A stretch of 64,000 nucleotides of DNA from a virus (IMGVR_UViG_3300006921_000012:1646-65645); one strand, 5' to 3'; shown: positions 16,115 through 58,313, counted from the first letter of the stretch. Numbers and translations are program-made. Notes: generated by a model not told the origin, from the sequence alone.

Positions 16115-16123
16115 AATAAATAT
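16115..16123 (-). promoter_or_regulatory. Putative late-promoter motif ATATTTATT
   Basis: 15 nt upstream of the ATG at 16099. Confidence 0.5.
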
Positions 16124-24394: not shown

Positions 24395-25564
24395 TTAAAA
24401 TCTAAATTTTAAATTAAAGTATGCTGGGTCAGATGCGTTTTTTTGTACTGGTCTATCTGGTTTAGCTATAGCTAACATTGTTCCGTCGGAATCATACAAA
24501 GCAACCTCTGTAATATATGTAGGCTTTTGTACACTATCTAAATCATAGAATGTTCCTGCTCCTAATTCGTTGGTGTTTGGTAACATAACGGGACCAGTTA
24601 ATACTGTTGGATTTAGGTCTGCAGCTGTAGTGTTTTGAGTTAAGTAGAACTCATTTGCTTCTGCTTTACACAGAACATTTAAAACCCATTGTTTTTCAAA
24701 ACTAAAAAATTCTGCTGAATTAGTTGTGTCCGTAAAGTATACTTGGGTAAATGCTGAACTAGTTCCTGTATATGCCCCACCAGCTAACTTTGTAGTTGCA
24801 GAATAATTAAATCCGTCTACTAGGGTTGGGTGTGTAAGTACACAGAATCCTTTATCTAAATAACATATTCCAACTGGTTCATCTACACCATCTCCCGCAT
24901 CTGTTGCTTGTGCTATTACTTTATTAGTATCGAAATCATGAGCGTTTACTACACCGTCTTGATATCCTTTAGGAATTTGAGTTAGAGTATACGATGTAGA
25001 CCATAATCCCCCATTTACTGGTGATTTAATTTGGTCACTAAATAGGAAAGCGACATTAGTACTTAAGTCTCCAACACCTGGATTAGGTACTGGTGGAACA
25101 TAATTAAAAGCTGATGTATGTCCAAACACTTCAGCTTCTATACTAGGGTCACTAGATGCGTTGTACCCCGCATAATATGAACTATAACAAGTAATGTAGG
25201 TTTTGGAACCACCACTCCATACTTGGGTTTTTAATCTGATTGTTCTACCGTCTATTAACTCTCCGTATGTATTTTTTGGAAATTCTACCACTACAGCGGT
25301 AGATGCTGTATCTATATCCTTCAAAGCATTACTCCCCCAATCAATATCCCATCCTGTTACTTCAAAATTTGCTGCGGGTAAACCAAATGCAGGATATAAA
25401 TTAGAAAAAGGTCTTCCGTTACTTGGGTCTCTCTGAATTTTAGTAAATCTTAGTGTTGACCCTTGTAATTGATTATACCCATTGAATGCTGGGTTTAATG
25501 TACCAAAAGGTATTATCTCTGAGGTTATTGTTTTGTCTCCGGGTGCTATATTTTTATATTCCAT
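24395..25564 (-). CDS. Tail/baseplate-associated structural protein
   Basis: C-terminal YITEVALYD.....AIAK.DRP, as in tail-collar/fibre attachment domains. Confidence 0.65.
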   Translation of the reverse strand: MEYKNIAPGDKTITSEIIPFGTLNPAFNGYNQLQGSTLRFTKIQRDPSNGRPFSNLYPAFGLPAANFEVTGWDIDWGSNALKDIDTASTAVVVEFPKNTYGELIDGRTIRLKTQVWSGGSKTYITCYSSYYAGYNASSDPSIEAEVFGHTSAFNYVPPVPNPGVGDLSTNVAFLFSDQIKSPVNGGLWSTSYTLTQIPKGYQDGVVNAHDFDTNKVIAQATDAGDGVDEPVGICYLDKGFCVLTHPTLVDGFNYSATTKLAGGAYTGTSSAFTQVYFTDTTNSAEFFSFEKQWVLNVLCKAEANEFYLTQNTTAADLNPTVLTGPVMLPNTNELGAGTFYDLDSVQKPTYITEVALYDSDGTMLAIAKPDRPVQKNASDPAYFNLKFRF

Positions 25565-25575
25565 TTATTTGTACT

Positions 25576-26004
25576 TTAATATCCATTATTACCACCATTT
25601 CTTGTCATGTCAAGTCTTACAGTAGATTTAGTTTGTGAAACAGCCATTGTATCATCTGTTTGCCAAGGTAATGTGGTTTTACCTGGGAAAAAGAATCTTT
25701 GATAATATAGACTCGATGTATTTTTATTTGCTTTGTTTAAGTAAGTATTTATTACACTTGATACCGCGGCAAACATTTTACCACCAGTACTGTAATCACC
25801 TTCTTTATTAGCTACAGAAAGAAGTTTAGCTGGTTTATAGCTTTTACTTACTTTTTCACCATAAGTTACTTTCCCAATTAAAGGTTCTGAATTGTTTCCA
25901 TTATCTAAATAATTAATTCCTCCTTTTGGGTAATCCATTTTATTGTTTTTACCAAAATTGTCATTAAACTGACCTACCAAATTTTGTGTTATATCTCCTA
26001 TCAT
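25576..26004 (-). CDS. Hypothetical protein in the tail block
   Basis: 142 aa, ATGA-coupled to the upstream gene. Confidence 0.6.
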   Translation of the reverse strand: MIGDITQNLVGQFNDNFGKNNKMDYPKGGINYLDNGNNSEPLIGKVTYGEKVSKSYKPAKLLSVANKEGDYSTGGKMFAAVSSVINTYLNKANKNTSSLYYQRFFFPGKTTLPWQTDDTMAVSQTKSTVRLDMTRNGGNNGY

Positions 26005-27695: not shown

Positions 27696-27752
27696 TTGTA
27701 ATTATCTTTTATTCTATAATTATCTTAATAATCATTTATTATTAGTAAACTG

Positions 27753-30700
27753 TTAAGTGCTTAACCATTTTATTCTCCATCCGTTAAACTTATTACCAAT
27801 TATCCTTATTCTTTTTGTTTTTATCTGTACTTTCCCATCTAATTCCACCGCTAAGGTCACACAATATTCATCTTCTTCATATTTCCAATAATGACCTTCA
27901 ACTTTATTTCTAATACCATTTAAGTAGGTGAATGTTTCTAAATCTCCCGGTACTGATTTTTTATTTATCTCTGATGCATCTACTTTCTTACACGCTTTTA
28001 ATTGAGGTTTAAAACCGGGTTTTAAAAACGTTTTCAATCCTGATTCTATAATCCATTTGAATTTTGCTTGACCTTTTACTACTTTAGTATTTCCAATGTA
28101 GGTCTCACTATTAAAGACCAAGTCATAGTCTATATATGTTTCATCATTATATTGATACGTGTATGGTTGTAAAATCGCATTCATGTCTACCACTAAACCA
28201 GTCCTTGCATTTCTATTAACTGTAGTTGTCATGTTTCGTTGGTTTTCACCCCAGATACCCATTTCTCCAGTATTGTCTAATGTTTGTAAAGAATCGATTG
28301 GTGCTGGTGTGGCAGCACTTCTATACGCGTCTGGTGTTAATTCATTTTCAGCCATTGCATTATTAGAAGAAACTCTTTGTTGTACCCCACCCAGAAGGGA
28401 ACCATAACTACTCATTCGTACTTGAGAGCTCATTAGTGGTAAAGGTCCACAACCTATTTCTTCTACCGTAGGTGGTACCACTGGGGGTCCACACGGTGGG
28501 TTAGGGCATGGATTAACAACTGTAGGGTCTGGTGGTCCTATTCTATTAATAAATACCGCGGGTAAACATTGACAATATGTGCATTCATATCCCGCATAAA
28601 TCTGAGTAGTTCCTGTAATAAAGTCAGTTAGGTCGGTTTGGAATGACGTTCCAGCAAATATAGCAGCACCGGGGCATGCAGCTGTAGTAGTTGCTTGTAC
28701 ACATCCAACCCCCGTATTGATGCCCCAACCATAATGTCTTAAACCAGCATGATTACAGACGTTGTCCCAAGTTGCACTTGCAAAAGATTGTATAGTTGTA
28801 GGCGTACCATTTATATCTACGGCGGGTGCCATTTGTCCTGTACCACTACCATCGATACCACCCCACGCTGGGGTTGTTGTAGGACTATAAGGGAATGCTG
28901 GTCTTTGATATGTTACTGGTATAAGGGTACTGTATGGGTTTGCACCTGTTAAGGCTATTAGTGGATGCCATGGATAAGACTTATTACCATTTGGTGCAAC
29001 CCCTGAATTATCCCCATATATAGTTAGGTTTATTTCACCTAATCCTGATAATGGAACTGTTCCTCCCATTATTGCACCATATGCATGTTGTAAAAAGTGA
29101 CTATAAGTCAAAACGTTTTTTTGTACTGCAGCGTATTGGAACCCTCTAAATGTGTCATAAAAAGGCAACGTCCTCATAAATAAATCTTGTGAATATTGCC
29201 AATCTGGTGTTGGTTGCCAACGTACATTTACTAACTCAAATGGATTTCCGACTGGACCTAAAGTAGCAGCGTATCCATTAGTACCTGTCCCATACCTTTC
29301 TGCACCATTCCAATCCCAACCCATCGCTCGGCTTAAGTTAGCAGTGGTATATGAAGCCCCACCAAATGCTGTACTTGAACCTGCTGCTCCACTTCCAGAA
29401 CCATGGTATCCCATATCATGGAAAGCTATATCTGTAGACGTTGTTGTAGTTGCAGGATTAGCACCCCAAGTTGCTATGGTAGATGTAGAAGGGCTTCCTA
29501 AGTTGACTGTCCCACTACCGTAATAAGTTTTATCACCTAAAGGCATAATACCACCCCAATTATTACTATCACCAACAGCTGTTTCGTCGGTGGTAGATAT
29601 AACTAATACATTTCTATCACCACCTTTAAAAGTTTCACACGGACAAGCAAGTGGTTGTTTAGTAAAATTTGTAGTTCCTGTTATAGCTACATAAGTTAAA
29701 GGACTTGCTGTTAAAGCATGGTGAGGGTCGGATATTCCCCACATATATCCCACATTCTGTTTGTTTGCCAAGATTACAGTAGTTCCCGTAGAAACTTCTA
29801 CCTGATTATTAAATGGGTTACCACATTCATTACAACCAAATAAACTACCCGTATCTCTAAAATCATCTGAACAACAATTTTGTTGACATAAAACATCTAA
29901 ATTATATGAGGTTGGGTTTTGGAGTGTAACCGCTCTATTTATTCCACTATAAATAAATCGAGTATCAAATTGTGGTAATGATTGTACATATGGGTCCGCA
30001 AATGTAGTACCAGATAACTCCCATGGAGAATATAAAGTATTAAATGGTGTTGCAGTAAAAGGTTGGGTTCCTGAACTTAGACCTACACCATTTGCGTAAC
30101 AGTCTGGTGCGTCCTCTCCAAAAGCTATCGGATAATTGGCCCACTCACCACTTAAATTTGTATAATAAGAAAAGGCCTTTCCACTTTCTACCCAATTCAT
30201 AGTACACCCAGTTACAAACCACTCCATTTTACTACCTCTCATATCACTATTACTGGTGATATCGGTTGTCGTACCAGGTGGGTACACTCCAAAACCTGCT
30301 AGGTAACCATTATTTACATTTATACCACTCCATAATCCTGTTACACTAAATAACCTAGGACCATAACCCACATCTTGGTCAGCTACTTGGAATGGGAATC
30401 CTGTAGATGCATTTGCACCTTCATAAACTGTATTAGTAGCACCCATTCCTTGATTTCCACCCCCATACCATGTTGTATAACCTTGAGAATTAGGATTTGT
30501 TGAGGTTACATTATAAGAACAAGTGTCTAATTCTCCATGCCATGGATAATATGAGGCATTTACCCATCTTTCACCAAATACGGGTATATGAAATACACTT
30601 CCCGTCCAACCTGTATTAATGTTTGTTCTATAGTTGGTCGCCCAGGCATCAATTCCATTTTTAGCCGCTGTACCTGTCGCTAATAATACACTGGTAACAT

Positions 30701-31112
30701 CATAAAAAGCATAAATGTTAGTACAACTTAAAAATGCAGAGTTTCCAGTTATAGGGTGACAATTTATAATTGGTCTTCCTCTGTGTCCTCTCACATCTGT
30801 CATATCAAACCATTCCGTAGTTGCTGTTAAAGGATTTACAAAGTGTTCTTGTAAATTAGCTATGATAGCTAAACCTAAATCATTATTTAGAGTTTGTGTA
30901 CTACCTGGTAGACTAGTGTTTTGTGGTTGGGGAGAAACTCCGTTATCCCAGTATTGAGATGTCTTTCTGTAGTCCCAATCATCATCATAAAATGTAAATC
31001 GCTGGATGAGTTCTTTTAGACCTAATCCATTCGGCTTAACCATTCTCTCCTTACCTTTATCGGTAAGGAACATCTCAAGTGATTTTATTTTATTAAATTC
31101 TAAAAATCCCAT
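27753..31112 (-). CDS. Large tail-associated protein with an interrupted vWA-like domain
   Basis: N-terminal LTDKGK...F.F.DDD.DY motif; IYAFYDVTS...VLVISTTDE region paralogous to part of the 3015-aa protein. Confidence 0.65.
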   Translation of the reverse strand: MGFLEFNKIKSLEMFLTDKGKERMVKPNGLGLKELIQRFTFYDDDWDYRKTSQYWDNGVSPQPQNTSLPGSTQTLNNDLGLAIIANLQEHFVNPLTATTEWFDMTDVRGHRGRPIINCHPITGNSAFLSCTNIYAFYDVTSVLLATGTAAKNGIDAWATNYRTNINTGWTGSVFHIPVFGERWVNASYYPWHGELDTCSYNVTSTNPNSQGYTTWYGGGNQGMGATNTVYEGANASTGFPFQVADQDVGYGPRLFSVTGLWSGINVNNGYLAGFGVYPPGTTTDITSNSDMRGSKMEWFVTGCTMNWVESGKAFSYYTNLSGEWANYPIAFGEDAPDCYANGVGLSSGTQPFTATPFNTLYSPWELSGTTFADPYVQSLPQFDTRFIYSGINRAVTLQNPTSYNLDVLCQQNCCSDDFRDTGSLFGCNECGNPFNNQVEVSTGTTVILANKQNVGYMWGISDPHHALTASPLTYVAITGTTNFTKQPLACPCETFKGGDRNVLVISTTDETAVGDSNNWGGIMPLGDKTYYGSGTVNLGSPSTSTIATWGANPATTTTSTDIAFHDMGYHGSGSGAAGSSTAFGGASYTTANLSRAMGWDWNGAERYGTGTNGYAATLGPVGNPFELVNVRWQPTPDWQYSQDLFMRTLPFYDTFRGFQYAAVQKNVLTYSHFLQHAYGAIMGGTVPLSGLGEINLTIYGDNSGVAPNGNKSYPWHPLIALTGANPYSTLIPVTYQRPAFPYSPTTTPAWGGIDGSGTGQMAPAVDINGTPTTIQSFASATWDNVCNHAGLRHYGWGINTGVGCVQATTTAACPGAAIFAGTSFQTDLTDFITGTTQIYAGYECTYCQCLPAVFINRIGPPDPTVVNPCPNPPCGPPVVPPTVEEIGCGPLPLMSSQVRMSSYGSLLGGVQQRVSSNNAMAENELTPDAYRSAATPAPIDSLQTLDNTGEMGIWGENQRNMTTTVNRNARTGLVVDMNAILQPYTYQYNDETYIDYDLVFNSETYIGNTKVVKGQAKFKWIIESGLKTFLKPGFKPQLKACKKVDASEINKKSVPGDLETFTYLNGIRNKVEGHYWKYEEDEYCVTLAVELDGKVQIKTKRIRIIGNKFNGWRIKWLST

Positions 31113-31121
31113 TTACTAATA

Positions 31122-33527
31122 TTAATAATCTATTTTAATAACAAACGTTTGTGTTCCTTGTCTTTTTGTTGCTGTTCTTAATTTTGCTATAGCCATTAAA
31201 TCTTTGGAGGCATCAAATAAACCGATTTCTGTAATTCTTACGGTATTAGCTGAATTCCATGTAGGATTTAATGAGGTGTTAAACTGATTACTAGAGATGG
31301 TAACATTATATTTCATTTCATATATAGTTGCCATTATATCTGTCTCTAGATTACCAAAAAAGAAATTCTCATCACCAAATTGTAATAGACTAGGTTCTTG
31401 ATTGTTATTTAAAGGAATATTAATATAGTCGTGGAGATTATATGTTGTTGCTCCAGTTATTACAACATTATTAATGTAGAAACTACAATTACTATTAGTC
31501 ATACCGGTTCCTAAAATTTCTTGCCCTGGAGTATGTTGTGCTATTTGATTAGTTAAGTCAGCTATCTTCCAATTAGCAGGATTAGGATAGTCACCATAAT
31601 TTACTCGTTGGAAAATTACTTTAAATTTATCAGCGTTCCATCCTGTTCCAGAGTATGCACAACCTACACTTGTGTTGTATCCTCTTAAGTATGGCCATTC
31701 TGGTCCAAAGTTCATTACAATGTCTCTTGCTCCTGCTGAAGTATCACCAATAATTTTACTATAATAATTACAATGCATTCCTGTACTATAACCTGCAGTA
31801 CTCTCCATTAGGTATGTTACATACATCTCTTCGGTATTAGGAGTGGCATTAAATGCTCCTACATTACTTGTTCCTCCAGCACAATTAGTACCAGCTGGTA
31901 TTAATTCTAGTTTAGGCATTGGTAATGTCCAATTTCTATTTGATTTATAAGTCAATGCAGTAAGTAATTCCTGGTCATCTATCACTATTAATTGTAAATC
32001 TGGGAATACTTTACCCACCCTATTTGGTGTCATTGTTTGATTTGCATCAACTGTAGCTAAGTTATCGTCCCATAGATTATAATATCTAATACCTGGGGTG
32101 TTCATGTCTGGATTCGGTAGAGACTCAATATAAAATTCTTCTGCTACTTGGAATCCTGGTGGGTCAACATAAAAAGTTTGTCCCATTTCACATTCGTCTC
32201 CTAGTCCAGTACCTGTTCCTCTTTTCTTATGCCACATAATGTGGGGTATGTGGATTTTGAAATTATCCATTTCCCCAATACCGTTTAGTTGGGTTCCATT
32301 AGGTTCTAAAGCAAATTTTTCTCCATAAAAATTAGAGATAGTATAATTGGTGTAGTGTAAGATAGCTACCGTTCTTTGTTCAGAAGGTAACATCGTTCTA
32401 ATTTGGTTAAATGAATCTCTGATATAAGTTCCTGAATTTTCTGGTTCGTAACCCGCTACATTGTTAGCTCCATAATAATCTTGTGCATTTTGTGTGTCAA
32501 ATTGACCGGTATCACTATTGTATCCTAGGTATTCTTTAGTACTACAATATCCAGAAGAACCATAAAAATCTACATTTTCATATACATTCTTATCTGTACC
32601 TGCAACCGTACCTGCATTAACTAAAGTACCGTCAAATTGAGTCCAGTTTATATTCATATTCCAGACGTTTACATCTTTAACAGAAACATCACAATTATTA
32701 TCAAAAGATAAAGAACCTGGTGACCAATAAGGGATTGGTGTGTCTTTACCCCAGTAATTGGTTACTGGACCACTTGTGAAGATTAGAACTCTTGCACATA
32801 GAGTAGAGGCTGTTGCAAAATTATTAGTAGACCAATCTGGTAAGGCTCTATCTACAGTAATATTCATAGTAGCTCCCGCGGTATCCCCACTACTAATAAC
32901 ATTATAAAATAAATAAGGATTAGAGTTATTAGATGGGATGTTTAAGTACCCAGATACACATCCTGTAGAGGATGATTGGTAAGGTGAGATATATTGTACC
33001 ATAACTAAATCCCCAGCTACTGGCCAATAGTCTTGTGTACTACACTGGGTCGCTCCACTCGTTAACCACATCATTGTTCCTCCCGTCATCGACTTAACTG
33101 GATAACACCAATTAGCTGATAAAACATAACCAGAACTAGTAATCGCACTAAATCCAGCACTCATTGTACTTCCACTAAAAAATCCACGTGGTCTTGCAAC
33201 ATTATAAACTGGTTGTTCGGAATGAGCTGGTGATAATACACCATATGTTGCACCACTATTAGTAGATAAAACCGGTATTGGGTATTTAACATTTTGTTTA
33301 TTTCTTTCAGCGGTAATATTTGATAGGTTTTGAGCGTTCCACATTGGTTCTGTAATCCAGATACCTGAAGACCCCGCTAGTACATCTGTATAGCAATCGT
33401 AACAGAATTCACTATCACCCAACTGAAATAATGAGAGGGATAAATTTCCTTGTGATAATTTTTTTCTTCCAGCATCAGTTAATCTCACTGTAACTAAACC
33501 GGAATTATTCTTTAATATGTATGGCAT
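31122..33527 (-). CDS. Tail/baseplate-associated structural protein
   Basis: Has both the N-terminal LTDAGRKKLSQG...FQLGDSE motif and the C-terminal ITEIGLFD...LMAIAKL motif. Confidence 0.7.
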   Translation of the reverse strand: MPYILKNNSGLVTVRLTDAGRKKLSQGNLSLSLFQLGDSEFCYDCYTDVLAGSSGIWITEPMWNAQNLSNITAERNKQNVKYPIPVLSTNSGATYGVLSPAHSEQPVYNVARPRGFFSGSTMSAGFSAITSSGYVLSANWCYPVKSMTGGTMMWLTSGATQCSTQDYWPVAGDLVMVQYISPYQSSSTGCVSGYLNIPSNNSNPYLFYNVISSGDTAGATMNITVDRALPDWSTNNFATASTLCARVLIFTSGPVTNYWGKDTPIPYWSPGSLSFDNNCDVSVKDVNVWNMNINWTQFDGTLVNAGTVAGTDKNVYENVDFYGSSGYCSTKEYLGYNSDTGQFDTQNAQDYYGANNVAGYEPENSGTYIRDSFNQIRTMLPSEQRTVAILHYTNYTISNFYGEKFALEPNGTQLNGIGEMDNFKIHIPHIMWHKKRGTGTGLGDECEMGQTFYVDPPGFQVAEEFYIESLPNPDMNTPGIRYYNLWDDNLATVDANQTMTPNRVGKVFPDLQLIVIDDQELLTALTYKSNRNWTLPMPKLELIPAGTNCAGGTSNVGAFNATPNTEEMYVTYLMESTAGYSTGMHCNYYSKIIGDTSAGARDIVMNFGPEWPYLRGYNTSVGCAYSGTGWNADKFKVIFQRVNYGDYPNPANWKIADLTNQIAQHTPGQEILGTGMTNSNCSFYINNVVITGATTYNLHDYINIPLNNNQEPSLLQFGDENFFFGNLETDIMATIYEMKYNVTISSNQFNTSLNPTWNSANTVRITEIGLFDASKDLMAIAKLRTATKRQGTQTFVIKIDY

Positions 33528-33548
33528 GGTTAATTATTTTAATTTATA

Positions 33549-33557
33549 TATAAATAT
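33549..33557 (-). promoter_or_regulatory. Putative late-promoter motif ATATTTATA
   Basis: 21 nt upstream of the ATG at 33527. Confidence 0.5.
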
Positions 33558-33565
33558 TATACCTA

Positions 33566-37261: not shown

Positions 37262-37266
37262 CTAAA

Positions 37267-46314: not shown

Positions 46315-46317
46315 CTA

Positions 46318-47223: not shown

Positions 47224-47234
47224 TTTTTAATTTT

Positions 47235-50060
47235 TTATTCTTGTTTCTTTATTTTATAATACCCATAAGCGTAATTTACCAATCCTCCCATAGTCTTTAT
47301 CTCCCCCAATCTTTGATTTGGCTCCATAACAGACTGTTTGCCCCTCTCAATAAATATTTCTGATTGTATTTCTGGTGGTTCCGAAACATTCATTAATGCT
47401 TCTTCTTTTGTAAGAGGTTCTCTACATAATAAAACAGGGGTTCCATTTAAGAAATTAACCTCGTCTTGGAAGGGTGTGATAACGTATTCACAACTTCCGT
47501 CATCAATCATTGCTAATGCGTTATAATTCCATGCATTAGGGTCCGTACAACCTTCCGTAGGATATGTACAACAACTAAAATCTTGAGGGTGTGGTACTGG
47601 TAAGGGGCCTGGTGAATAAGGTCCACCACAATCTTCAGTAGCTAGAGGATTATAATTAATTGCCTGTGGGTCCATACATCCCGGACCTGCTCCTGGAATA
47701 TCATAAGTACAGAGAGTTAAATCTGGTACCCACGCTATTTGCATATTAATATAACTTGGTCCTTGAGCTATCCAATTAGGATGAGTATTAGTTGAAGTAC
47801 ACATAGGTGGTCCTCCCGCTGAAATTGCCGTATAGTTAGCAGGGTCAGCACAAGGGTCGTAGTTAACTGCAAAGACGTCAGGACAACCATAATCATACGT
47901 ACATGAACCATCCATAATATTTGCCATTGGGTCGTAGTTATTTGCCGGTATTCCTGGATAGACGTATCCCGGATATGGTATGGCACCAACAACACTTAAT
48001 CCTAAACCACCATCATCTATACACCCATTAATTGGTTCATCATAAAAACATGAACCGGAATCTACATTTGCTAAGGGATTATAATTCCACACTAAATAAG
48101 AACCAAAACCAAAAATATCTGGATTACCTGGTGTTGCTGGGGTATTATCCATACATCCAGGTATTTGATATTGACAACAATCTGCCCATCCCGGGTTGTA
48201 CGTACCAGGACCTCCTGGTGGATGTGGGTCACCATTACAATCTTCTAAACAATTTGGACAATAGTTACTTGCACCTACAGCAGAAGACGTTATATTAGTC
48301 GGACTCACAAGACCTATCATAACCGAATAACCTGGATAAAAAGGTATGTCTGTATTACCACCTGCACTAGCCCATGAAAACGATGGATTTGCTGGTGTAT
48401 ACCTAGCTGGGTCAGGCACTGCTGGGGGAACACCCCCACCACCGGTCCATGGTGATAACACACCATTTCCATCATCTCTACATCCCGCATCTGAACAACA
48501 ACAAGTATCGGCACTCTGGTAATTGGTTTTATTCCACGCATATGGGTGGTTAGACATATTAGGTGCACCATTAGAAGTTAAACTAGTACAAGGAACTGGA
48601 CTACCTGCTGAAGGTTGGGTGGCAGTCGTTGGTAACCCTTGTGCGTCGTTATAATTAAAAGTTGTAGCTCCTCCCGCAACCCATGAAACATTTTCACACA
48701 TCCATTGTGAATTTACGTTATCCCAGTATTTTGAATGTGCTGGGTCTGGATTTCCCTGACAGTCTAAACCACTAGAAGTAGTGGTTGCTCCATTAAAATT
48801 AGCAAAATTAGGGTCGGGACAACCAAATTGACTATACTTACAACAAGCGTCCCAATCTTGACTCTGTTTAAAGTCTGCATTGTGGTATTTAACATCAGGG
48901 TTGGGATTATATTGAGTTGGGCTACTTCTGTCACCACCTGCTCCCATTGTTTCACATCCTGCATATTGGTGATTAACACCGTACCCAACTCCACCATATA
49001 CTGCAGTTGTCTCAGCACCTAAAGGACTATCCCATGAACTCGCCGCACCATTCCATGTAGGAAATAGGGTGGTATTAGTTGCTGGGTCTACAAGGCTAGT
49101 ACCATAACATGGATGAAAAACTGCTTTTCCTTCACAATCAAAACACCCATTATCAGCTCCAGTTACTTGTCCTGTCACATCAAAACCATTTAAAATAGAA
49201 TTGTTCGAGATACATCCTGTTGGGGATGGGTTCGTTGGGGGACCTAAACACTGACCATTAGGTGAACAATCACCGTCTTGGCATGTTTGCCAAACAGTTG
49301 AAGTAAGAGGACATCCAGGAGTTAAATTGTGTCCGTTCGGTATTGATTGGGATGGTATATTTGTACCATAATCCATTGGGTTTAGACAGGAGGATAGTGG
49401 GCATCCGTCCTCGTTTTCGGTACCTAATAGTAAAGGATTAATACATAATGATATCCATGGAAAACCACCTTCGTTTGAGGCATACTGCCATCCACACGTT
49501 GAAGGAGCCTTCCACCAACCACTTAAACCTGCTTGACTATTAAATAGGTATTCGTGAAATGTCAAATCTAATCTACCCGCACCAGCCCATGAACCAGTCC
49601 CACAAGGTCCAGCCCAAATACCACTAGGGTCCCTATATAGCCCTCTGTTACCATGTAATTGATAAAGTCCACTAAAAATTTGACCACACCTACTACTCTG
49701 ACCTATATTAAAATAGTACATTCTACTGGTCGTGGAAAGACTATATATTCCAGTAGTACCACCTGGAAAATAACCACTTGTCCATGTATCTTCGTGTGAT
49801 GTATAGGTATTAGTCCTAACAAACTGATAAAAAAATGGAATATCCCCTGCCATCATACCCGAACATAAACATGAACAAGAATCCGTACCACTTTCTAACC
49901 CTGAATTTGCAGTATTGGCACCGTCATATGCTGAATTGTAATTAGAATTACTAAAACCACCACCAACTAACTTAGGGTAGTTATATCCTACACCCCATGT
50001 TACTGCTCCTATTTGTTCAGTTCCGGTTGAAGGTCCTGATGCTTGTCCTGGACATCCCAT
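47235..50060 (-). CDS. Cys/Gly/Pro-rich structural protein with GCxD..A.NY repeats
   Basis: 941 aa; repeats followed by a charged C-terminal domain (TKEEAL...FIERGK...RLGEI...YGYY). Confidence 0.7.
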   Translation of the reverse strand: MGCPGQASGPSTGTEQIGAVTWGVGYNYPKLVGGGFSNSNYNSAYDGANTANSGLESGTDSCSCLCSGMMAGDIPFFYQFVRTNTYTSHEDTWTSGYFPGGTTGIYSLSTTSRMYYFNIGQSSRCGQIFSGLYQLHGNRGLYRDPSGIWAGPCGTGSWAGAGRLDLTFHEYLFNSQAGLSGWWKAPSTCGWQYASNEGGFPWISLCINPLLLGTENEDGCPLSSCLNPMDYGTNIPSQSIPNGHNLTPGCPLTSTVWQTCQDGDCSPNGQCLGPPTNPSPTGCISNNSILNGFDVTGQVTGADNGCFDCEGKAVFHPCYGTSLVDPATNTTLFPTWNGAASSWDSPLGAETTAVYGGVGYGVNHQYAGCETMGAGGDRSSPTQYNPNPDVKYHNADFKQSQDWDACCKYSQFGCPDPNFANFNGATTTSSGLDCQGNPDPAHSKYWDNVNSQWMCENVSWVAGGATTFNYNDAQGLPTTATQPSAGSPVPCTSLTSNGAPNMSNHPYAWNKTNYQSADTCCCSDAGCRDDGNGVLSPWTGGGGVPPAVPDPARYTPANPSFSWASAGGNTDIPFYPGYSVMIGLVSPTNITSSAVGASNYCPNCLEDCNGDPHPPGGPGTYNPGWADCCQYQIPGCMDNTPATPGNPDIFGFGSYLVWNYNPLANVDSGSCFYDEPINGCIDDGGLGLSVVGAIPYPGYVYPGIPANNYDPMANIMDGSCTYDYGCPDVFAVNYDPCADPANYTAISAGGPPMCTSTNTHPNWIAQGPSYINMQIAWVPDLTLCTYDIPGAGPGCMDPQAINYNPLATEDCGGPYSPGPLPVPHPQDFSCCTYPTEGCTDPNAWNYNALAMIDDGSCEYVITPFQDEVNFLNGTPVLLCREPLTKEEALMNVSEPPEIQSEIFIERGKQSVMEPNQRLGEIKTMGGLVNYAYGYYKIKKQE
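47480..48825 (-). repeat. Degenerate protein-level repeats GC(M/T/P/I/R)D....NY(N/D)P.A..D.GSC.Y
   Basis: About seven units, e.g. GCTDPNAWNYNALAMIDDGSCEY, GCMDPQAINYNPLATEDC, GCPDVFAVNYDPCA, GCPDPNFANFN. Confidence 0.8.
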
Positions 50061-50073
50061 ATTTTATATTTTA

Positions 50074-51990
50074 TTAATCACTAGTTTCTACTGTTATAGA
50101 GACTTGTTTAGTACATCCTTTATCATTTAAAATGGTAAAGGTGTAAAGACCAGCTGCTGGTCCATTTATATTTGTATAATTGCTAGGACAAAGATTGTCA
50201 AAGAAAATATTATTATATTGCCCATTTACAGGATAAATAGTTATAGATTCTGAGGTATTATTATTTGTAATAGTATACTCTGAACTTAACATGTCAAATC
50301 CACCCATTTCTACTACACCATCACAATCAAAAGTATGTGATTGAATTCCATTTGCATTTGTTAATGTAACAGTACCACATGTTTGAACATTATTTAAAGT
50401 TATATTAAGATTTTCTATTTCTGTACATCCACAGTTAGCGTTACAACCCTCTAACGAGGAATACATATTACTTTGTGCTAATAAACTACTATAAGTCGAT
50501 TCTCCACTATCTTCATCTATCCAACTACCTTGTGGTATTTCACTACAAACCGTATTCATACATTCAAATAACCTATCCAAAGGGGTTATATTACTTACTT
50601 TAGGAATTACGGGAGTAGGTAAGGCTGTTTTCTCTTCTTGGGGTGCTCCGTATACTATCGCAGAACCTAATACTCCACCTGCCACTCGATTTCCTGGTCC
50701 TGCTCTCCTCATCAATCCATTTGCTTGTTTACACTCATCTTCAGTACACCAAAGAGGACTCTGTTGATTAACTGTTACATAGTGGCCTGGATTTGATGGG
50801 TCGGGTATTAGATATAGGAAAAGATTTGCCTGGGTCCCTGAATTTGGTGGGAAGCCTCCACCTCCACCATCTAAATAATCTCTAATTGTCATACAATCCA
50901 TTCCCATATGGACTATCCAACAATCTAAATGTGGGTCTTCACTGCAATTACAAACTTCCTCTTCTTTACAACAATGATAATCTATATTATCATGATTTAA
51001 TCCCATACTCATAGCTGAGTATGCTGTGGTCCCTCCACTATAATCTATATAATTAATATCGTTTAAAGTGTATGCCGTATACCAAGAAGAAATGGTAGTT
51101 ATAACACCAGTACCCGATAATCCCACATTTACCACTGACCCTACATTTGGGTATGGGTTGGTCCCGTATTGTTTTAAAACTTTTAACTGACTGGTATAGG
51201 AGTGTCCTGTAACCGCAAAAGGTGTATTCACCCAATTACTACTTAGAGTATCCCACACATCTGGATTACTATCCCCCCAAAATATCCAATCTTGGGTTAC
51301 CGAATCACATCCAATTGGGTCTCCAATATTTGGAGCTAACATAGAAAAGTTTCCGAATGGGTTTGGTATTACTGGACTATTAAAGTATGGAATAGGAACA
51401 CTCCTAGAAATGAATGTGGTTCCCCAGGGATTTACTTGACTTAAAGTTATAGTATAACCACTACTAGGTGTGGTGTAGGTATGACTTGCAGTTACTTGTA
51501 AAGGTGGAGTTAATTGTGATGTATTACCATCTCCCCAATCTACATCATAAGGAGCAACTCTTAAAAATTTCCTAAATTCTAAATCTGCTGTATTAAATAT
51601 AGTGATACTATTATTGTTTCCTGTATATACAAAATTAACTAATACATCTCGTTGTACGGCTAACCCATCAAATGGTGTATAAACCCCAATATCGTTAAAA
51701 TCTTGAGTTAAAAGTATAGGTATTGTAATACCTGTTAAACAAGGAGGTGGAGGTGGAAGAGGAGCTGTGGATGTTAAACTTCTCCATGAATCACACCTAT
51801 AATCGTTCCTCACTTTTGCTTTCCAATATCCACATTTTCCTCCATTATTAAAAAAACAATTATTACAATTTTGTCCACTAAGTAAATTATTCTTTTGTTC
51901 AGACACATAAGATAATGGTAATTGGGCTGGTATTGCATCTAGTTGTCCTGGATACAATCTTCTCTGAATTTGTAATGAATGTCTCTCCAT
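50074..51990 (-). CDS. Structural protein with a PKD-like domain and Cys-rich segments
   Basis: VDWGDGN....SHTY....YTITL (PKD-like); C-terminal F.NL.....G.YTFTI....GC (SprB-like). Confidence 0.7.
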   Translation of the reverse strand: MERHSLQIQRRLYPGQLDAIPAQLPLSYVSEQKNNLLSGQNCNNCFFNNGGKCGYWKAKVRNDYRCDSWRSLTSTAPLPPPPPCLTGITIPILLTQDFNDIGVYTPFDGLAVQRDVLVNFVYTGNNNSITIFNTADLEFRKFLRVAPYDVDWGDGNTSQLTPPLQVTASHTYTTPSSGYTITLSQVNPWGTTFISRSVPIPYFNSPVIPNPFGNFSMLAPNIGDPIGCDSVTQDWIFWGDSNPDVWDTLSSNWVNTPFAVTGHSYTSQLKVLKQYGTNPYPNVGSVVNVGLSGTGVITTISSWYTAYTLNDINYIDYSGGTTAYSAMSMGLNHDNIDYHCCKEEEVCNCSEDPHLDCWIVHMGMDCMTIRDYLDGGGGGFPPNSGTQANLFLYLIPDPSNPGHYVTVNQQSPLWCTEDECKQANGLMRRAGPGNRVAGGVLGSAIVYGAPQEEKTALPTPVIPKVSNITPLDRLFECMNTVCSEIPQGSWIDEDSGESTYSSLLAQSNMYSSLEGCNANCGCTEIENLNITLNNVQTCGTVTLTNANGIQSHTFDCDGVVEMGGFDMLSSEYTITNNNTSESITIYPVNGQYNNIFFDNLCPSNYTNINGPAAGLYTFTILNDKGCTKQVSITVETSD

Positions 51991-51993
51991 ATT

Positions 51994-52944
51994 TTATACT
52001 GGGTTTACGTATTCCCAAAACTCTATCGGGGTGTTTATACTTGTTCCTACTCTAGTACCTGCCATGTCTTCAACCCAATAGGTAAAATTATTTTTATCTA
52101 AGAGTAATTTATAATACATATTATTGGCTGGGTCAAAACTAGTCGGGTTAGGTAATGTGGACGGGTCTACATTGGTAAATCTAGACACCTCACCATCTCT
52201 ACCATTATAAAACTTTGTAGACATATAGAAAGTATTAAGATTTAAATAGGTACTCTCTTTTAACCAATAAAAGAAGTAACCTATACTTTTATTATCCATA
52301 TCAAAGTGATAACGGGGTATTGGTACATTACGTGCAGTATCTAATACTGTATTTAACCCACTAGCATCCATTATTGGGGGGTCGGGAACATTCATATTTA
52401 AAGCACCCCATTCTGAAATAACTTGTGCTGGTGTTGACCCAATAATGTTATTCATACAATCTGCATCTATGGCAGATAAATTAAGTTTAGTACCATTCAC
52501 GGGACTAAGAATATTGGACATATAGAATTTTTGTCTTGTCTTTACAGGATTATCATAAAAATCTAACTTAAAGAAACTTTTTAACAAATCAGAGGTATTT
52601 TCCCCCAATTCCTGATTGGTGTAACCTTTAAAGTTAAATCCAAACGGGTAGGGTTGGAATGGTGTGGCGAAGGGGAGTGTCGTAGGGTAGAGTCCCGTAG
52701 ATACTTGATAAAAGTTAAACTGGTAGAATATATCGGGACTTTCTTCACTATTATCTAATAATGGAGCATGTCTATATCTACTTACTTCAAAGTCTTTAGT
52801 GGGATTTACTAATTTTCTTACTACGTCATTCTCATATACTTTTATTAAATCTTCTCTACCAGTCTCATCGAAAGTAGTACCGAACCCTAGTTGAATGACT
52901 GGGTCTTTAGTGTTTATATTAAATGTAAATTTATTCGCAGCCAT
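51994..52944 (-). CDS. Putative structural protein
   Basis: 316 aa; SFFKLDFYD and terminal PIEFWEYVNP. Confidence 0.7.
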   Translation of the reverse strand: MAANKFTFNINTKDPVIQLGFGTTFDETGREDLIKVYENDVVRKLVNPTKDFEVSRYRHAPLLDNSEESPDIFYQFNFYQVSTGLYPTTLPFATPFQPYPFGFNFKGYTNQELGENTSDLLKSFFKLDFYDNPVKTRQKFYMSNILSPVNGTKLNLSAIDADCMNNIIGSTPAQVISEWGALNMNVPDPPIMDASGLNTVLDTARNVPIPRYHFDMDNKSIGYFFYWLKESTYLNLNTFYMSTKFYNGRDGEVSRFTNVDPSTLPNPTSFDPANNMYYKLLLDKNNFTYWVEDMAGTRVGTSINTPIEFWEYVNPV

Positions 52945-54724
52945 CTGTTAAAAAGTCATCTATTATTTCTGTTAATCCTGTAACTGACAGGTCTGATTCC
53001 ATTCTAATCTGTTTTTGAACATAGAATGGGATAATTTTACTTGGGTATTGAGCGTTATTCATAAAAGGATAGTCTACACCATGTCCCCCTTCTATAAACC
53101 CTATCTCCCACAAATCTCTCCATCTCCAAGTTTTTTCTCTTTCCCAGTATTCTGCCCAATCTGGTATATCAATCACTTCTTGTGGGTCTCCAAACTCGAT
53201 GTAGGTGGAGAATCTTCTGATGGGAACCTCGTAGTGTGGTTTATAAATATAACCTTTAACCCCATCTATAGTATCTTGTGACATCATAAACACCGAAGAA
53301 TTCCAACTAAATTGGTGTTTTATTTCACTTATAACTCTTTCTTTTAGTTCTTCCGCATTATATTCACAGAAATCTCCTCTCAGTAAGTCCCCAACTCTTA
53401 ATTCTGTACCTCTCATTAATCCAGTACCACCCGGTAGAACATCTACTATAGGACCAGAAGGTTGTGGGTCTCCTATATCTCCTCTTACAATATTAGGACC
53501 AACTGGTCCGAATGGTAAAGGTACACCTGAGGCATCTCCAACCCCACTAATGGAAGTATCCATGAAAGTTAGGGGGAAATTCCATTCCCACCCATATCGT
53601 GGGGGATAATTAAAGTAACCTAAATCATTTCTTAAAAATACTGTAACATATAAGTTTGTAAGTGGTCTTCCTAGATTATCTCTTAGAGTTTTAACATCTA
53701 CATCTCTGGTGAAAGAATATAAATACGAAGGGTAACTATTCTTAACCGAAACCCTACATGAACCTAAAGGTGTCACTTTATCAACTTGTTTAACATCCGG
53801 AAAAACTCCTTGTTCAAAACCACAATCATCAAGTACTGTATCCGATACTTTTGTTAATATTTTATTTACTCTCACATAATATTGAGAAAGACTTTCAGGA
53901 TTGGCTTTATTAGTTTGCCTTCTCATGGTACCCATTGCAAAATTCGGTAGTGTTGGAAAACCTACCACCGTTCCTTGAGGAAAAAGTAAATTAAATACGG
54001 TTTCGGAAGAATTTCTAGTTGAGTCACCTACACTATAAACTGGAAAGATAGTATCTCTAAGAGTGTATGTTGTCCCTTGACCATCATCCATATTTAATAC
54101 CACATATTCACCCGTACTTAATCCATGGGGAGCACCACAATAAAATCTAATCATATCTCTTCCGTTCAAGGTTATTTGTTGAGTATGAAAAGGAATTCCT
54201 TGGTTTGCTAAAAAAGCTATAGTGTTTGAGGTTGGTGATTGTTCTGCTTGGTACCACATTCGTTGGTCACTCATACATTCAGATGGGTAAGTTAGGAACA
54301 TATTCCAATTAGTGGTGGTAGATAAAAATTCATCTACATCCTTTCTTTTAAAATCAAATTCTTGAAATTGTGGATAACCAGGCCAAGGAGAAAATGCTGT
54401 ACCTCCAGAACTGTGGATATAATATAATTGTTGAAAAAGTAGGGTTGTAAATCCACTGGAACTCGAACTCGTATCTGTATTTATAGCTAATCCACCATAG
54501 TCATTATCTATAAAAGGTGATATTTTACCGTACACTCTATAGTTACTTATATTTTGTCTTTCATCATTAAATCTATCATTAATATTCAGATTTACAGTTC
54601 TATCTCCCTGTATCAAAGGTCTAGAAGTGTCATTTAATGTAACTTGGAAAGTTAAGTCTTCTTCCGTTGCACCAGCAAACTTTTTACTTGGTATAACTTT
54701 TAATATGTTTTCTCTATTTCCCAT
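52931..54724 (-). CDS. Putative baseplate structural protein
   Basis: 597 aa; PHGL..GEYV (DUF4815/UBACT-like hairpin) and WRWRD...GVDYPF motifs. Confidence 0.7.
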   Translation of the reverse strand: MGNRENILKVIPSKKFAGATEEDLTFQVTLNDTSRPLIQGDRTVNLNINDRFNDERQNISNYRVYGKISPFIDNDYGGLAINTDTSSSSSGFTTLLFQQLYYIHSSGGTAFSPWPGYPQFQEFDFKRKDVDEFLSTTTNWNMFLTYPSECMSDQRMWYQAEQSPTSNTIAFLANQGIPFHTQQITLNGRDMIRFYCGAPHGLSTGEYVVLNMDDGQGTTYTLRDTIFPVYSVGDSTRNSSETVFNLLFPQGTVVGFPTLPNFAMGTMRRQTNKANPESLSQYYVRVNKILTKVSDTVLDDCGFEQGVFPDVKQVDKVTPLGSCRVSVKNSYPSYLYSFTRDVDVKTLRDNLGRPLTNLYVTVFLRNDLGYFNYPPRYGWEWNFPLTFMDTSISGVGDASGVPLPFGPVGPNIVRGDIGDPQPSGPIVDVLPGGTGLMRGTELRVGDLLRGDFCEYNAEELKERVISEIKHQFSWNSSVFMMSQDTIDGVKGYIYKPHYEVPIRRFSTYIEFGDPQEVIDIPDWAEYWEREKTWRWRDLWEIGFIEGGHGVDYPFMNNAQYPSKIIPFYVQKQIRMESDLSVTGLTEIIDDFLTDGCE

Positions 54725-58240: not shown

Positions 58241-58254
58241 ACATTACTTTAACA

Positions 58255-58263
58255 GATAAATAT
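58255..58263 (-). promoter_or_regulatory. Putative late-promoter motif ATATTTATC
   Basis: 14 nt upstream of the ATG at 58240. Confidence 0.5.
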
Positions 58264-58313
58264 TTGTTCTGTCAAAATTAAAAGTAATATACACTACCTA
58301 TTTGTAAATCTAA

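What the first reader, a model, noticed from the sequence alone, without database searches (positions are those of the whole stretch)
24395..54724. Dispersed [ST]-[GA]-x-T tetrapeptide across the virion proteins: candidate modification sequon
Seen: by hand count the 3015-aa protein has about 34 copies (TGQT, TGTT, SATT, SGGT, TGYT, SAVT, SGIT, TGHT, TGFT, TAYT, SAIT, SGNT, SADT, SGLT, SGST, SGAT and others). A rough composition estimate predicts about 6. The motif also recurs in the 1231-, 1119-, 801-, 638-, 597- and 389-aa proteins, which are mostly unrelated to each other, and is scarce in the enzymes. Copies are not tandem and codons vary, so the signal is at the protein level. It differs from the Bacteroidota O-glycosylation sequon D-(S/T)-(A/I/L/V/M/T). 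Inference: a phage-specific signal for dense virion O-glycosylation or another modification, or a docking site for a decoration protein or chaperone. This is my best candidate for an undescribed system in the window.
Basis: partly seen in the sequence, partly recalled or inferred. Interest (0 to 1): 0.8.

Follow-up and report, generated by a model that had tools for sequence, protein, structure and literature searches.

The report
Sequon-like motif on phage tail proteins
A short pattern (hydrophobic residue, Ser/Thr, Gly/Ala, any residue, Thr) is 4 to 14 times too frequent on the outer tail and baseplate proteins of an uncultured group of giant T4-like phages, and it behaves like a tag for attaching sugars, although no chemical proof exists yet.

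Summary
The 3015-aa protein has exactly 34 [ST][GA]xT copies against 7.2 expected. The 1231-aa protein has 20 against 4.6 and the 801-aa protein 11 against 1.9. The 25 ORFs of at least 150 aa at 22-24393, mostly replication and other non-virion genes, have 1 copy in total. In an unbiased scan of about 48,000 three-residue patterns, SAxT, SGxT and TGxT are the top three. The signal is at protein level: codons match the background and all 83 DNA 12-mers differ. It does not come from repeats, local composition or known sequons.

The enrichment runs through the clade. All 57 aligned 801-aa homologues show it (mean 11.9 against 2.1), as do relatives at 40% identity (up to 14x). It is absent from T4, a Flavobacterium phage, a Microcystis phage and a 484-kb uncultured phage. 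The pattern, not the residues, is conserved: S/T and G/A swap at the same site. Sites turn over while density stays high.

All five relatives' contigs of 134 kb or more carry a PF13712/GT2 glycosyltransferase. Three have it in a demonstrated sugar gene cluster beside motif-rich proteins. The four outgroups lack this enzyme.

Best reading (about 0.45): an O-glycosylation sequon on exposed virion proteins. Main rival: a structural turn or cap motif. No glycosyltransferase lies in the window, and no mass spectrometry exists.

The parts
37267..46314 (-). p3015, a giant tail/baseplate-module protein with 34 motif copies
   Evidence: 34 observed against 7.16 expected, z 10.2. With a hydrophobic residue in front: 24 against 2.2, z 15. 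No Pfam or PHROG hit. No solved relative. No internal repeats by hhalign self-comparison; best off-diagonal probability 0.3%.
33566..37261 (-). p1231, a tail-fibre-like protein with 20 motif copies
   Evidence: 20 against 4.64, z 7.5. PHROG tail fiber phrog_33406, E 1e-9. Homologues have 15-22 copies against about 4 expected; a subgroup at about 50% identity has 7-8 against 3.3.
31122..33527 (-). p801, a conserved baseplate/tail component with 11 motif copies
   Evidence: 11 against 1.85, z 7.1. 756 homologues. All 57 aligned sequences are enriched. AF2 model pLDDT 80. Best structural matches are phage tail and baseplate chains, Z 9.6, 7.0 and 6.9.
27753..31112 (-). p1119, weakly enriched with 8 copies
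   Evidence: 8 against 3.74, p 0.036. Shares a 45%-identical segment with p3015: residues 131-199 against 999-1077.
50074..51990 (-). p638, marginal with 4 copies
   Evidence: 4 against 1.23, p 0.031. In relatives at 40% identity, the 360-400-aa protein at the same place in the module has 8-12 copies against about 1.
52931..54724 (-). p597, marginal with 3 copies
   Evidence: 3 against 0.75, p 0.037. The counterpart at the same place in relatives' modules (568-602 aa) has 6-9 copies against 0.5-0.7.
24395..25564 (-). p389, 3 copies, not significant alone
   Evidence: 3 against 1.11, p 0.10.
46318..50060 (-). p301 and p941, module members without enrichment (internal controls)
   Evidence: 1/0.38 and 1/2.1. 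The 301-302-aa protein at the same place has 0 copies in 6 relatives at about 40% identity and 1 in the 89% relative L001. The language-model look-alikes of p301 are DUF285/LRR proteins, score 0.89, a lead only.
54728..60610 (-). p1170, gp6/J-like wedge and gp25-like wedge: anchors that identify the module as a baseplate; not enriched
   Evidence: Pfam Baseplate_J E 9e-5 and GPW_gp25 E 8e-12; PHROG baseplate wedge E 3e-21. Motif counts 0/1.4, 0/0.85 and 0/0.23.

Best explanation
The pattern hydrophobic-[ST]-[GA]-x-T is a short linear recognition motif under selection on the exposed virion proteins of this clade: tail fibres and peripheral baseplate strongly, sheath and capsid weakly. The clade is a group of uncultured T4-like jumbo phages that probably infect Bacteroidota.

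The most likely function is a sequon for O-glycosylation in the host cytoplasm by phage-encoded glycosyltransferases, giving a dense glycan coat on the host-recognition apparatus.

Shown: the enrichment, its sharp residue specificity, its conservation as a pattern, its turnover, its restriction to particular proteins and to this clade, and the presence of glycosyltransferase and sugar genes in relatives.

Inferred: that these enzymes act on these proteins, which residue receives the sugar (the invariant Thr or the leading Ser/Thr), and that the window's own phage carries the enzymes outside the 65.6-kb contig.
For: 1. Specificity is as sharp as a sequon. This is pooled over 33 enriched proteins (29,533 aa; 365 observed against 82 expected).
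- Position 1: S 5.8x and T 3.5x; every other residue at most 1.4x, with D 0.8 and N 0.7.
- Position 2: G 4.5x and A 4.3x; all others at most 1.2x.
- Position 4: T 4.5x, C 2.0x, S 1.1x.
- Position -1: F and L 9.8x, Y, V and I 6-7x; D, E, K, R and G 0.6-1.5x.

2. At conserved alignment columns S/T and G/A interchange and x varies. Column 403 has S18/T15 and A17/G16.

3. Between p801 homologues at 35-45% identity, 30% of motif sites are kept against 4-8% for six permuted or shifted control patterns (16-20% for [ST][NS].T and [ST][DN].T). There are still 8.5 non-shared sites per sequence against 1.9-4.7 for all eight controls. This means purifying selection together with maintained density.

4. 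DSSP contexts in the good p801 model are mixed: strand end into turn, in strand, helix start and coil. So this is not one turn type.

5. The enrichment is not general. T4 has 28/24.3, Flavobacterium phage immuto 37/23.5, Microcystis phage Mel-JY01 10/8.1 and LR756508 4/3.0.

6. Within the relatives G001 and G006, only 9 of 156 and 9 of 200 ORFs reach p < 1e-3, and all 18 are large proteins that hit no enzyme family. Those identifiable lie in the baseplate/fibre module or beside the glycosyltransferase/sugar cluster. Portal, terminase, internal giant proteins and all enzymes are at or below expectation.

7. S/T/G-rich proteins of the same genome are not enriched, for example a T9SS-tail protein with 0 against 5.2.

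8. A PF13712+GT2 glycosyltransferase is present in 5 of 5 clade contigs of 134 kb or more and in 0 of 4 outgroup genomes.
- In G001, G002 and G006 glycosyltransferase and sugar-nucleotide genes are demonstrated around it. G001 and G006 have 4,6-dehydratases and methyltransferases; G001 also has a nucleotidyltransferase; G006 also has a fucosyltransferase-like GT10 and two sulfotransferases.
- In all five contigs the operon lies divergently beside strongly motif-rich proteins: 23/2.4, 20/2.1, 14/2.5, 11/2.0 and 8/1.5.

9. One subclade adds a GT60-family gene (PF11397, E 6e-71) directly after a motif-rich gene cluster. By recall, GT60 is the family of polypeptide and hydroxyproline GlcNAc-transferases.

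10. A precedent exists: mycobacteriophage virions are glycosylated by phage-encoded glycosyltransferases (passages of PMC12363180 citing Freeman 2023).
Against: - No glycosyltransferase was found in the window or its contig. The contig is only about 20% of a genome, so the enzyme link is borrowed from relatives at 40-62% identity.
- The enzyme-motif co-occurrence is a single phylogenetic event (one clade against outgroups).
- In the search listing, PF13712 is named only in lipooligosaccharide outer-core locus papers. Phage sugar clusters may instead act on host polysaccharide or DNA.
- The GT60 gene was not found in the subclade nearer the window: G006 (77% complete), G007 and G010.
- Position -1 is hydrophobic and several sites sit at strand ends. 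This would also suit a structural element.
- No coordinates were available, so surface exposure was not measured.
- The p1231 model was too poor to use (pLDDT 50.8).
- One p1231 subgroup keeps only 7-8 sites.
- The turnover estimate depends on alignment quality in variable regions.
Confidence: 0.45

Rival explanations
1. A structural or folding motif. The hydrophobic residue ends a beta-strand, Ser/Thr caps it, the small residue allows a tight turn and Thr starts the next strand or a short helix. The clade's fibre and baseplate domains would use this element unusually often, with no modification involved.
For: - In the p801 model, 5 of 11 sites have the S/T as last strand residue followed by a turn, and 4 sit in or at the start of a helix.
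- Position -1 and the residue after the Thr are hydrophobic or aromatic, like a hydrophobic staple with N-cap (recalled pattern).
- Thr, not Ser, at position 4 fits beta propensity.
- Several sites are positionally conserved in 36-46 of 57 homologues.
Against: - Asp and Asn, the usual equivalents of Ser/Thr in capping turns, are not enriched at position 1 (0.8x and 0.7x).
- Gly and Ala are equally enriched and interchange at the same site, which argues against a positive-phi turn.
- DSSP contexts are heterogeneous.
- T4, immuto, Mel-JY01 and LR756508 tail proteins, also beta-rich, show no enrichment.
- Laminin_G_3 and T9SS-tail beta-proteins of the same genomes show none.
- No repeats or shared domains link the proteins.
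- There are many lineage-specific sites.
Confidence: 0.3
2. A docking motif for a non-enzymatic partner: a phage-encoded chaperone or assembly factor, or a decoration protein that binds many virion proteins.
For: - The clade encodes an unusual chaperone set. DnaJ is in the window. G006 has Hsp70 (855 bits), a ClpB-like protein, two ClpP, cyclophilin and FKBP.
- The motif-rich proteins are very large and must fold and assemble.
Against: - By recall, Hsp70/DnaJ binding sites are hydrophobic cores flanked by basic residues, not S/T-G/A-x-T.
- The motif contains no proline for the isomerases.
- No candidate decoration protein was identified.
- The giant internal proteins of G001 (1392, 1649 and 2091 aa) and G006 (2176, 1696, 2457 and 3039 aa) should also need chaperones, yet they are not enriched.
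Confidence: 0.1
3. A sequon for a different covalent modification of Ser/Thr, such as phosphorylation, sulfation, acylation or a cross-link, rather than glycosylation.
For: - There are two hydroxyl residues at fixed spacing.
- G006 carries two sulfotransferase-family genes and several methyltransferases in the sugar cluster.
- Cys is 2.0x enriched at position 4.
Against: - No protein kinase or other protein-modifying enzyme was recognised in the clade genomes scanned (71 of 156 and 187 of 200 ORFs).
- The sulfotransferases and methyltransferases sit among sugar-nucleotide genes, so glycan tailoring is their simpler reading.
Confidence: 0.1
4. A statistical or compositional artefact: post hoc motif choice in Ser/Thr/Gly-rich proteins.
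For: - The proteins are Thr- and Gly-rich.
Against: - z is 7-10 against global and local shuffles.
- The motif ranks top three of about 48,000 patterns and survives Bonferroni correction.
- It is replicated in 56 homologues and in distant relatives.
- S/T/G-rich control proteins are not enriched.
Confidence: 0.01

Closest known systems
Mycobacteriophage virion O-glycosylation (Che8, Corndog, Myrna; Freeman et al. 2023, seen only as cited in passages of PMC12363180)
   Same: Phage-encoded glycosyltransferases are held to modify the phage's own virion proteins in the cytoplasm. The C-terminal GT2 domain of the clade's enzyme finds mycobacteriophage glycosyltransferases, Myrna's among them, at 23-25% identity.
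   Different: There the modified proteins are capsid and tail-tube subunits. By recall the sites are in C-terminal Ser/Thr-rich tails with no dispersed sequon. Here the candidate targets are fibre and baseplate proteins with dozens of dispersed sites and a sharp 5-residue pattern. The primary paper could not be read.
General O-glycosylation of Bacteroidota, sequon D-(S/T)-(A/I/L/V/M/T)
   Same: The same probable host phylum, and a three-residue sequon on Ser/Thr.
   Different: That sequon is not enriched here: p3015 13/11.0, p1231 8/5.5, p801 1/2.5. By recall it acts in the periplasm, which virion proteins do not pass through.
N-x-S/T sequon (oligosaccharyltransferase and HMW1C-type cytoplasmic N-glycosyltransferases)
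   Same: A short degenerate sequon with a hydroxyl residue at fixed spacing. Thr is preferred over Ser, and Cys is a weak substitute (recalled for N-x-C; here Cys is 2.0x at position 4).
   Different: N-x-[ST] itself is not enriched, z -0.8 to 1.1 in the four motif-bearing proteins tested. There is no Asn in the motif.
Giant-virus capsid and fibril glycosylation with virus-encoded sugar pathways (chloroviruses, mimiviruses; recalled)
   Same: A large virus carrying its own nucleotide-sugar synthesis, methyltransferases and several glycosyltransferases beside structural genes. It would glycosylate independently of host secretory machinery.
   Different: Those are eukaryotic viruses. The chlorovirus sites are N-linked at atypical sequons. 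No homology was tested.
ST-turn, ST-motif and helix capping box with hydrophobic staple (structural micro-motifs; recalled)
   Same: Ser/Thr first, a polar residue three positions later, and hydrophobic residues flanking.
   Different: Asp/Asn equivalence is absent, Gly equals Ala, Glu is absent at the N3-like position, and contexts are mixed.

Membership tests
Bacteroidota O-glycosylation sequon D-[ST]-[AILVMT] | Enrichment or presence of D-[ST]-[AILVMT] on target proteins | tested here: not met
   p3015 13/11.0 (z 0.6), p1231 8/5.5, p801 1/2.5, p1119 1/3.4.
N-linked sequon N-x-[ST] | Enrichment of N-[^P]-[ST] | tested here: not met
   z between -0.8 and 1.1 in p3015, p1231, p801 and p1119. 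The unenriched controls p941 and p1170 gave -0.2 and -1.9.
Phage virion glycosylation by phage-encoded glycosyltransferases (mycobacteriophage type) | Glycosyltransferase genes in the phage genome | tested here: inconclusive
   None in the window or its 65.6-kb contig, which is about 20% of a genome. Present in all 5 related contigs of 134 kb or more.
Phage virion glycosylation by phage-encoded glycosyltransferases (mycobacteriophage type) | Glycan covalently attached to virion proteins | not testable with these tools
   Needs mass spectrometry or glycan staining. No cultured relative exists: p801 has no match in 50,697 phage records.
   - BLASTP all-against-all of 13 module proteins gave no self-hits and two short cross-hits at E <= 0.01.
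- hhalign self-comparison of a 3-sequence p3015 profile gave a best off-diagonal probability of 0.3%. The profile is shallow (Neff 1.4).
ST-turn / beta-turn structural motif | Asx equivalence at position 1, Gly-specific position 2, and one secondary-structure context | tested here: not met
   D 0.8x and N 0.7x. G 4.5x against A 4.3x. DSSP contexts are mixed in the pLDDT-80 model. Only 11 sites were modelled well and no coordinates were available, so this is not decisive.
GT60 polypeptide GlcNAc-transferase system (PF11397) | PF11397 gene in the genome | tested here: inconclusive
   Present in G001 (E 6e-71) and G002. Not found in G000, G006, G007, G008, G009 or G010, all of them incomplete records.

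The most novel reading that the evidence does not exclude
A large, globally distributed clade of uncultured T4-like jumbo phages of Bacteroidota coats its tail fibres and outer baseplate with a dense O-glycan shield. The glycans would be attached at a previously undescribed sequon, hydrophobic-[ST]-[GA]-x-T, by phage-encoded cytoplasmic glycosyltransferases: a conserved PF13712+GT2 enzyme, with a GT60 polypeptide GlcNAc-transferase added in one subclade. The glycans would be tailored by phage-encoded deoxysugar, fucose, methyl and sulfate enzymes. This would be the first defined sequon for phage virion glycosylation. Sites would then be predictable from sequence across thousands of metagenomic phage proteins.
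Probability: 0.4. Interest if true: 0.85.

Novelty: new variant of a known kind. Interest (0 to 1): 0.72.

Why it matters
Virion glycosylation by phage enzymes is known from a few mycobacteriophages, and there without a sequon. A sharp, sequence-readable sequon on the host-recognition apparatus of an abundant aquatic phage clade would bring several things within reach:
- It would make phage glycoproteomes predictable from metagenomes.
- It would suggest a way for phages to mask or tune receptor-binding proteins, protecting them from proteases, aggregation or host surface defences.
- It would supply a portable tag-enzyme pair for cytoplasmic glyco-engineering.

Even if the motif proves purely structural, it is an unusually strong, clade-specific sequence rule spanning dozens of unrelated proteins, and it needs explaining.

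Tried and rejected
- **DNA-level signal:** rejected. Codons match the background, all 83 12-mers differ and the other frames are empty.
- **Local composition:** rejected. 40-aa block shuffles keep the z-scores.
- **Post hoc choice of motif:** rejected by the de novo pattern scan.
- **Paralogy or repeats:** rejected at the sensitivity available.
- **Known sequons:** not enriched.
- **General property of myovirus tail proteins:** rejected using T4, immuto, Mel-JY01 and LR756508.
- **Fold identification of p801:** Foldseek against PDB gave no match at E <= 0.001. VIA-align gave only middling matches to phage tail and baseplate chains (Z 9.6 to 6.9) and to small beta-barrel domains for residues 133-252 (Z 4-6).
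- **Solved relatives:** none for p3015 or p1231 by sequence.
- **AF2 model of p1231** (19-sequence alignment): pLDDT 50.8. 15 of 20 sites fall in blocks below 60, so it was not used as evidence.
- **p301 as a hidden enzyme:** the look-alikes are LRR/DUF285 proteins, a lead only.
- **Isolated relatives:** none for p801 or p3015. The nearest baseplate-J matches are at 26-27% identity.
- **Literature:**
  - Searches on phage tail fibre glycosylation sequons, on virion O-glycosylation and on the motif strings found nothing relevant.
  - PF13712 is named only in lipooligosaccharide locus and unrelated papers (listing only).
  - Freeman 2023 is not held.
- **Earlier findings of this scan:** nothing returned.

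Full report
**What the window is.** The window is 64 kb of a 65.6-kb viral contig, which CheckV rates at about 20% of a genome.
- Nearly all large genes lie on the minus strand.
- Going downstream on that strand from a gp25-like wedge (60152-60610) and a gp6/J-like wedge (58314-60152) (Pfam and PHROG), there is a run of proteins of 1170, 597, 316, 638, 941, 301, 3015, 1231, 801, 1119, 564 and 389 aa.
- None of these has a Pfam hit. Only p1231 hits a PHROG, a tail fiber family.
- By position this is the peripheral baseplate and fibre module of a myovirus.
- The rest of the window encodes replication, repair and host-like genes.

**Checking the observation.** The hand count was exact.
- p3015 has 34 [ST][GA]xT sites against 7.16 in 2000 shuffles (z 10.2). 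p1231 has 20 against 4.64 (z 7.5). p801 has 11 against 1.85 (z 7.1).
- p1119, p638 and p597 are marginal (p 0.03-0.04), and p389 is not significant alone.
- p941, p564, p301, p316 and p1170 are at or below expectation.
- The 25 ORFs of at least 150 aa at 22-24393 have one site in total.
- Shuffling within 40-aa blocks leaves z at 9.6, 7.2 and 6.6. Patterns with the same residues in another order or spacing, or with Ser in place of the last Thr, are not enriched in p3015 and p801.
- To guard against post hoc selection I scanned about 48,000 three-residue patterns in six shapes. SA.T, SG.T and TG.T are the top three (p 1.5e-10, 1.5e-9 and 6.3e-8), and nothing else is below 2e-5.
- The residue before the motif is hydrophobic in 60% of 83 sites against 34% in the background. 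With that residue included, p3015 has 24 sites against 2.2.

**Level and independence of the signal.**
- Codon usage at the fixed positions matches the genes' background. All 83 sites have different 12-mers. The other five reading frames carry 0-8 sites. The signal is therefore in the protein.
- BLASTP among the 13 module proteins finds no self-hits. The only cross-hits are a 45%-identical segment shared by p1119 and p3015, and a weak N-terminal match between p564 and p801.
- A profile self-comparison of p3015 finds no off-diagonal alignment above 0.3% probability.

**The motif is a property of a clade.**
- p801 has at least 756 homologues at E <= 0.001. I aligned 56 of the 120 listed with the window protein.
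- All 57 sequences exceed expectation: mean 11.9 against 2.07, range 5-20, z up to 15.
- In viral contigs whose p3015 N-terminal homologue is about 40% identical, the module proteins are even richer. Examples: 582 aa with 9 against 0.7, and 389 aa with 12 against 1.0.
- In the 192-kb relative G001, 9 of 156 ORFs reach p < 1e-3. In the 246-kb relative G006, 9 of 200 do.
- All 18 are large proteins that hit no enzyme family. Most lie in the baseplate/fibre module or beside the glycosyltransferase/sugar cluster described below.
- In G006 the sheath (10/3.6) and the Gp23-type capsid protein (4/1.29) are mildly enriched. Portal, terminase, the giant proteins next to the tube and hub genes, and all enzymes are not.
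- S/T/G-rich proteins of the same genomes are not enriched. A T9SS-tail protein has 0 sites against 5.2 expected.

**It is not a general feature of phage tails.**
- T4: 22 proteins, 28 against 24.3.
- Flavobacterium phage immuto: 13 proteins, 37 against 23.5.
- Microcystis phage Mel-JY01: 12 proteins, 10 against 8.1.
- The 484-kb uncultured phage LR756508: 4 against 3.0 from its J-like gene onward.

The last three are the nearest records by baseplate-J similarity, at 26-27% identity. None shows the effect.

**Anatomy of the motif.** The figures below are pooled over 33 enriched proteins of the window, G001 and G006 (365 sites against 82 expected).

| Position | Enriched | Not enriched |
|---|---|---|
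| -1 | F, L 9.8x; Y, V, I 6-7x | D, E, K, R, G (0.6-1.5x) |
| 1 | S 5.8x; T 3.5x | all others at most 1.4x (D 0.8, N 0.7) |
| 2 | G 4.5x; A 4.3x | all others at most 1.2x |
| 3 | any residue | P, K, R disfavoured |
| 4 | T 4.5x; C 2.0x | S 1.1x; the rest about 1 |

- At positionally conserved columns of the p801 family, S and T interchange, G and A interchange, and x varies.
- Between homologues at 35-45% identity, 30% of sites are retained. Six permuted or shifted control patterns retain 4-8%, and two related controls retain 16-20%.
- Each sequence still has 8.5 sites its partner lacks, against 1.9-4.7 for the controls. Alignment error in variable regions may inflate this figure.
- In the p801 model (pLDDT 80), the 11 sites fall in several contexts: strand end into turn, inside strands, at or in short helices, and coil.
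- Seven of the 11 sites lie in residues 91-240. This span includes a small beta-barrel domain whose structural neighbours are insertion domains of phage tail and capsid proteins (Z 4-6).

**Enzymes in relatives.**
- The window holds no glycosyltransferase.
- All five related contigs of 134 kb or more (G001, G002, G006, G007, G010) carry a glycosyltransferase of about 505-560 aa with a PF13712 domain. A second, GT2 domain was confirmed in G001, G002 and G006. The N-terminal domains of G001 and G006 are 45% identical.
- The two shorter contigs tested (65 kb and 107 kb) lack it.
- The four outgroup genomes lack it when searched whole. That search had no positive control of its own, but the same family was detected.
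- In G001 the enzyme sits with other GT2 genes, a nucleotidyltransferase, a sugar C-methyltransferase and an epimerase/dehydratase.
- In G006 it sits with a dTDP-glucose 4,6-dehydratase, a GDP-mannose dehydratase-like gene, Glyco_transf_7C, GT10, methyltransferases, two sulfotransferase-family genes and a further GT2.
- In all five contigs this long operon lies divergently next to a strongly motif-rich large protein: 14/2.5, 11/2.0, 23/2.4, 20/2.1 and 8/1.5. Its gene content in G007 and G010 was not scanned.
- The G001/G002 subclade also has a PF11397 (GT60) gene, E 6e-71, directly after a motif-rich cluster. It is very conserved: 392 stretches, with the best 80 at 73-100% identity.
- That gene was not found in G006, G007, G008, G009, G010 or the window's contig, all of which are incomplete.

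**Interpretation.** Several features together are what a short linear recognition motif, a sequon, looks like:
- sharp residue classes;
- conservation of the pattern, not of the residues;
- high density maintained through site turnover;
- mixed structural contexts;
- restriction to exposed virion proteins;
- restriction to one clade that also carries its own glycan machinery beside those genes.

I therefore favour O-glycosylation of virion proteins in the cytoplasm by phage enzymes (confidence about 0.45). This is inference:
- No site is shown to be modified.
- The enzyme link comes from relatives and from one phylogenetic event.
- In the literature listing, PF13712 is named only in lipooligosaccharide locus papers.
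- Such clusters could serve other ends.

The main rival is a structural strand-cap or turn element used unusually often in this clade (about 0.3). The hydrophobic flank and the strand-end sites favour it. The absence of Asp/Asn, the Gly/Ala equivalence, the mixed contexts and the negative outgroups count against it.

A docking site for the clade's own chaperones (about 0.1) and a different covalent modification (about 0.1) remain possible. The chaperones are DnaJ in the window, and Hsp70, ClpB-like, ClpP, cyclophilin and FKBP in G006.

**Comparison with what is known.**
- The Bacteroidota sequon D-[ST]-[AILVMT] and N-x-[ST] were tested and are not enriched.
- The closest precedent is mycobacteriophage virion glycosylation. 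I saw it only as cited in PMC12363180, because the primary paper is not held. By recall it has no dispersed sequon.
- Searches for the motif or for phage tail-fibre sequons in print found nothing.

If the favoured reading is right, this is a new variant of a known kind of system: virion glycosylation by virus-encoded enzymes, with a new sequon and new targets.

**Limits.**
- No model coordinates were available, so exposure was not measured.
- The p1231 model failed.
- Pfam covered 71 of 156 G001 ORFs and 187 of 200 G006 ORFs.
- All clade genomes are incomplete metagenomic contigs.
- No cultured relative exists.

Noticed in passing
window 2896-4077 (-): A phage-encoded DruA (Druantia) family protein, Pfam PF14236, E 4e-24. 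A homologue is also in relative G006 (E 3e-26).
   Followed up: partly
window 6055-7026 (-); G006 loci L185:5736-7601, L185:7688-9823, L175:8500-10917, L180:11279-11713: The window has a full-length DnaJ. The relative G006 also encodes Hsp70 (855 bits), a ClpB-like AAA protein, two ClpP, a cyclophilin and an FKBP. Together these make a near-complete phage-borne chaperone and protease set.
   Followed up: partly
window 33566-37261 (-), N-terminal about 80 residues of p1231: A SprB-like repeat. The protein search returned bacterial gliding-motility-type proteins carrying PF13573 over 8-12% of the query. The G001 protein next to the p3015 homologue hits Pfam SprB at E 1e-16. This points to a Bacteroidota host.
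   Followed up: partly
window 27753-31112 and 37267-46314 (-): p1119 residues 131-199 and p3015 residues 999-1077 share a 45%-identical segment (E 2e-11). This is the only clear shared module among the fibre proteins.
   Followed up: no
L047:5521-7632 (G001) and L174:1182-1583 (G006): Phage relatives encode proteins with type IX secretion C-terminal sorting domains (Por_Secre_tail E 2e-11; CHU_C E 5e-21). The G001 protein is S/T/G-rich yet has 0 motif sites against 5.2 expected.
   Followed up: partly
L042:17821-19074 (G001) and loci L048-L127: A PF11397 (GT60-family) glycosyltransferase gene is far more conserved (73-100% identity in the best 80 of 392 viral stretches) than the neighbouring structural proteins (about 40%).
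   Followed up: partly
pooled motif sites (window, G001, G006): Cys is 2.0x enriched (25/12) at the position of the invariant Thr, while Ser is not (1.1x).
   Followed up: no
window 16123-16923 (-), 18115-20430 (-), 60865-62766 (-): The phage carries a sigma-70 family factor, an SbcC/Rad50-like protein with zinc hook, and a B12-type ribonucleotide reductase. Relative G006 has two Mom-family proteins and a glutamine synthetase-like gene.
   Followed up: no
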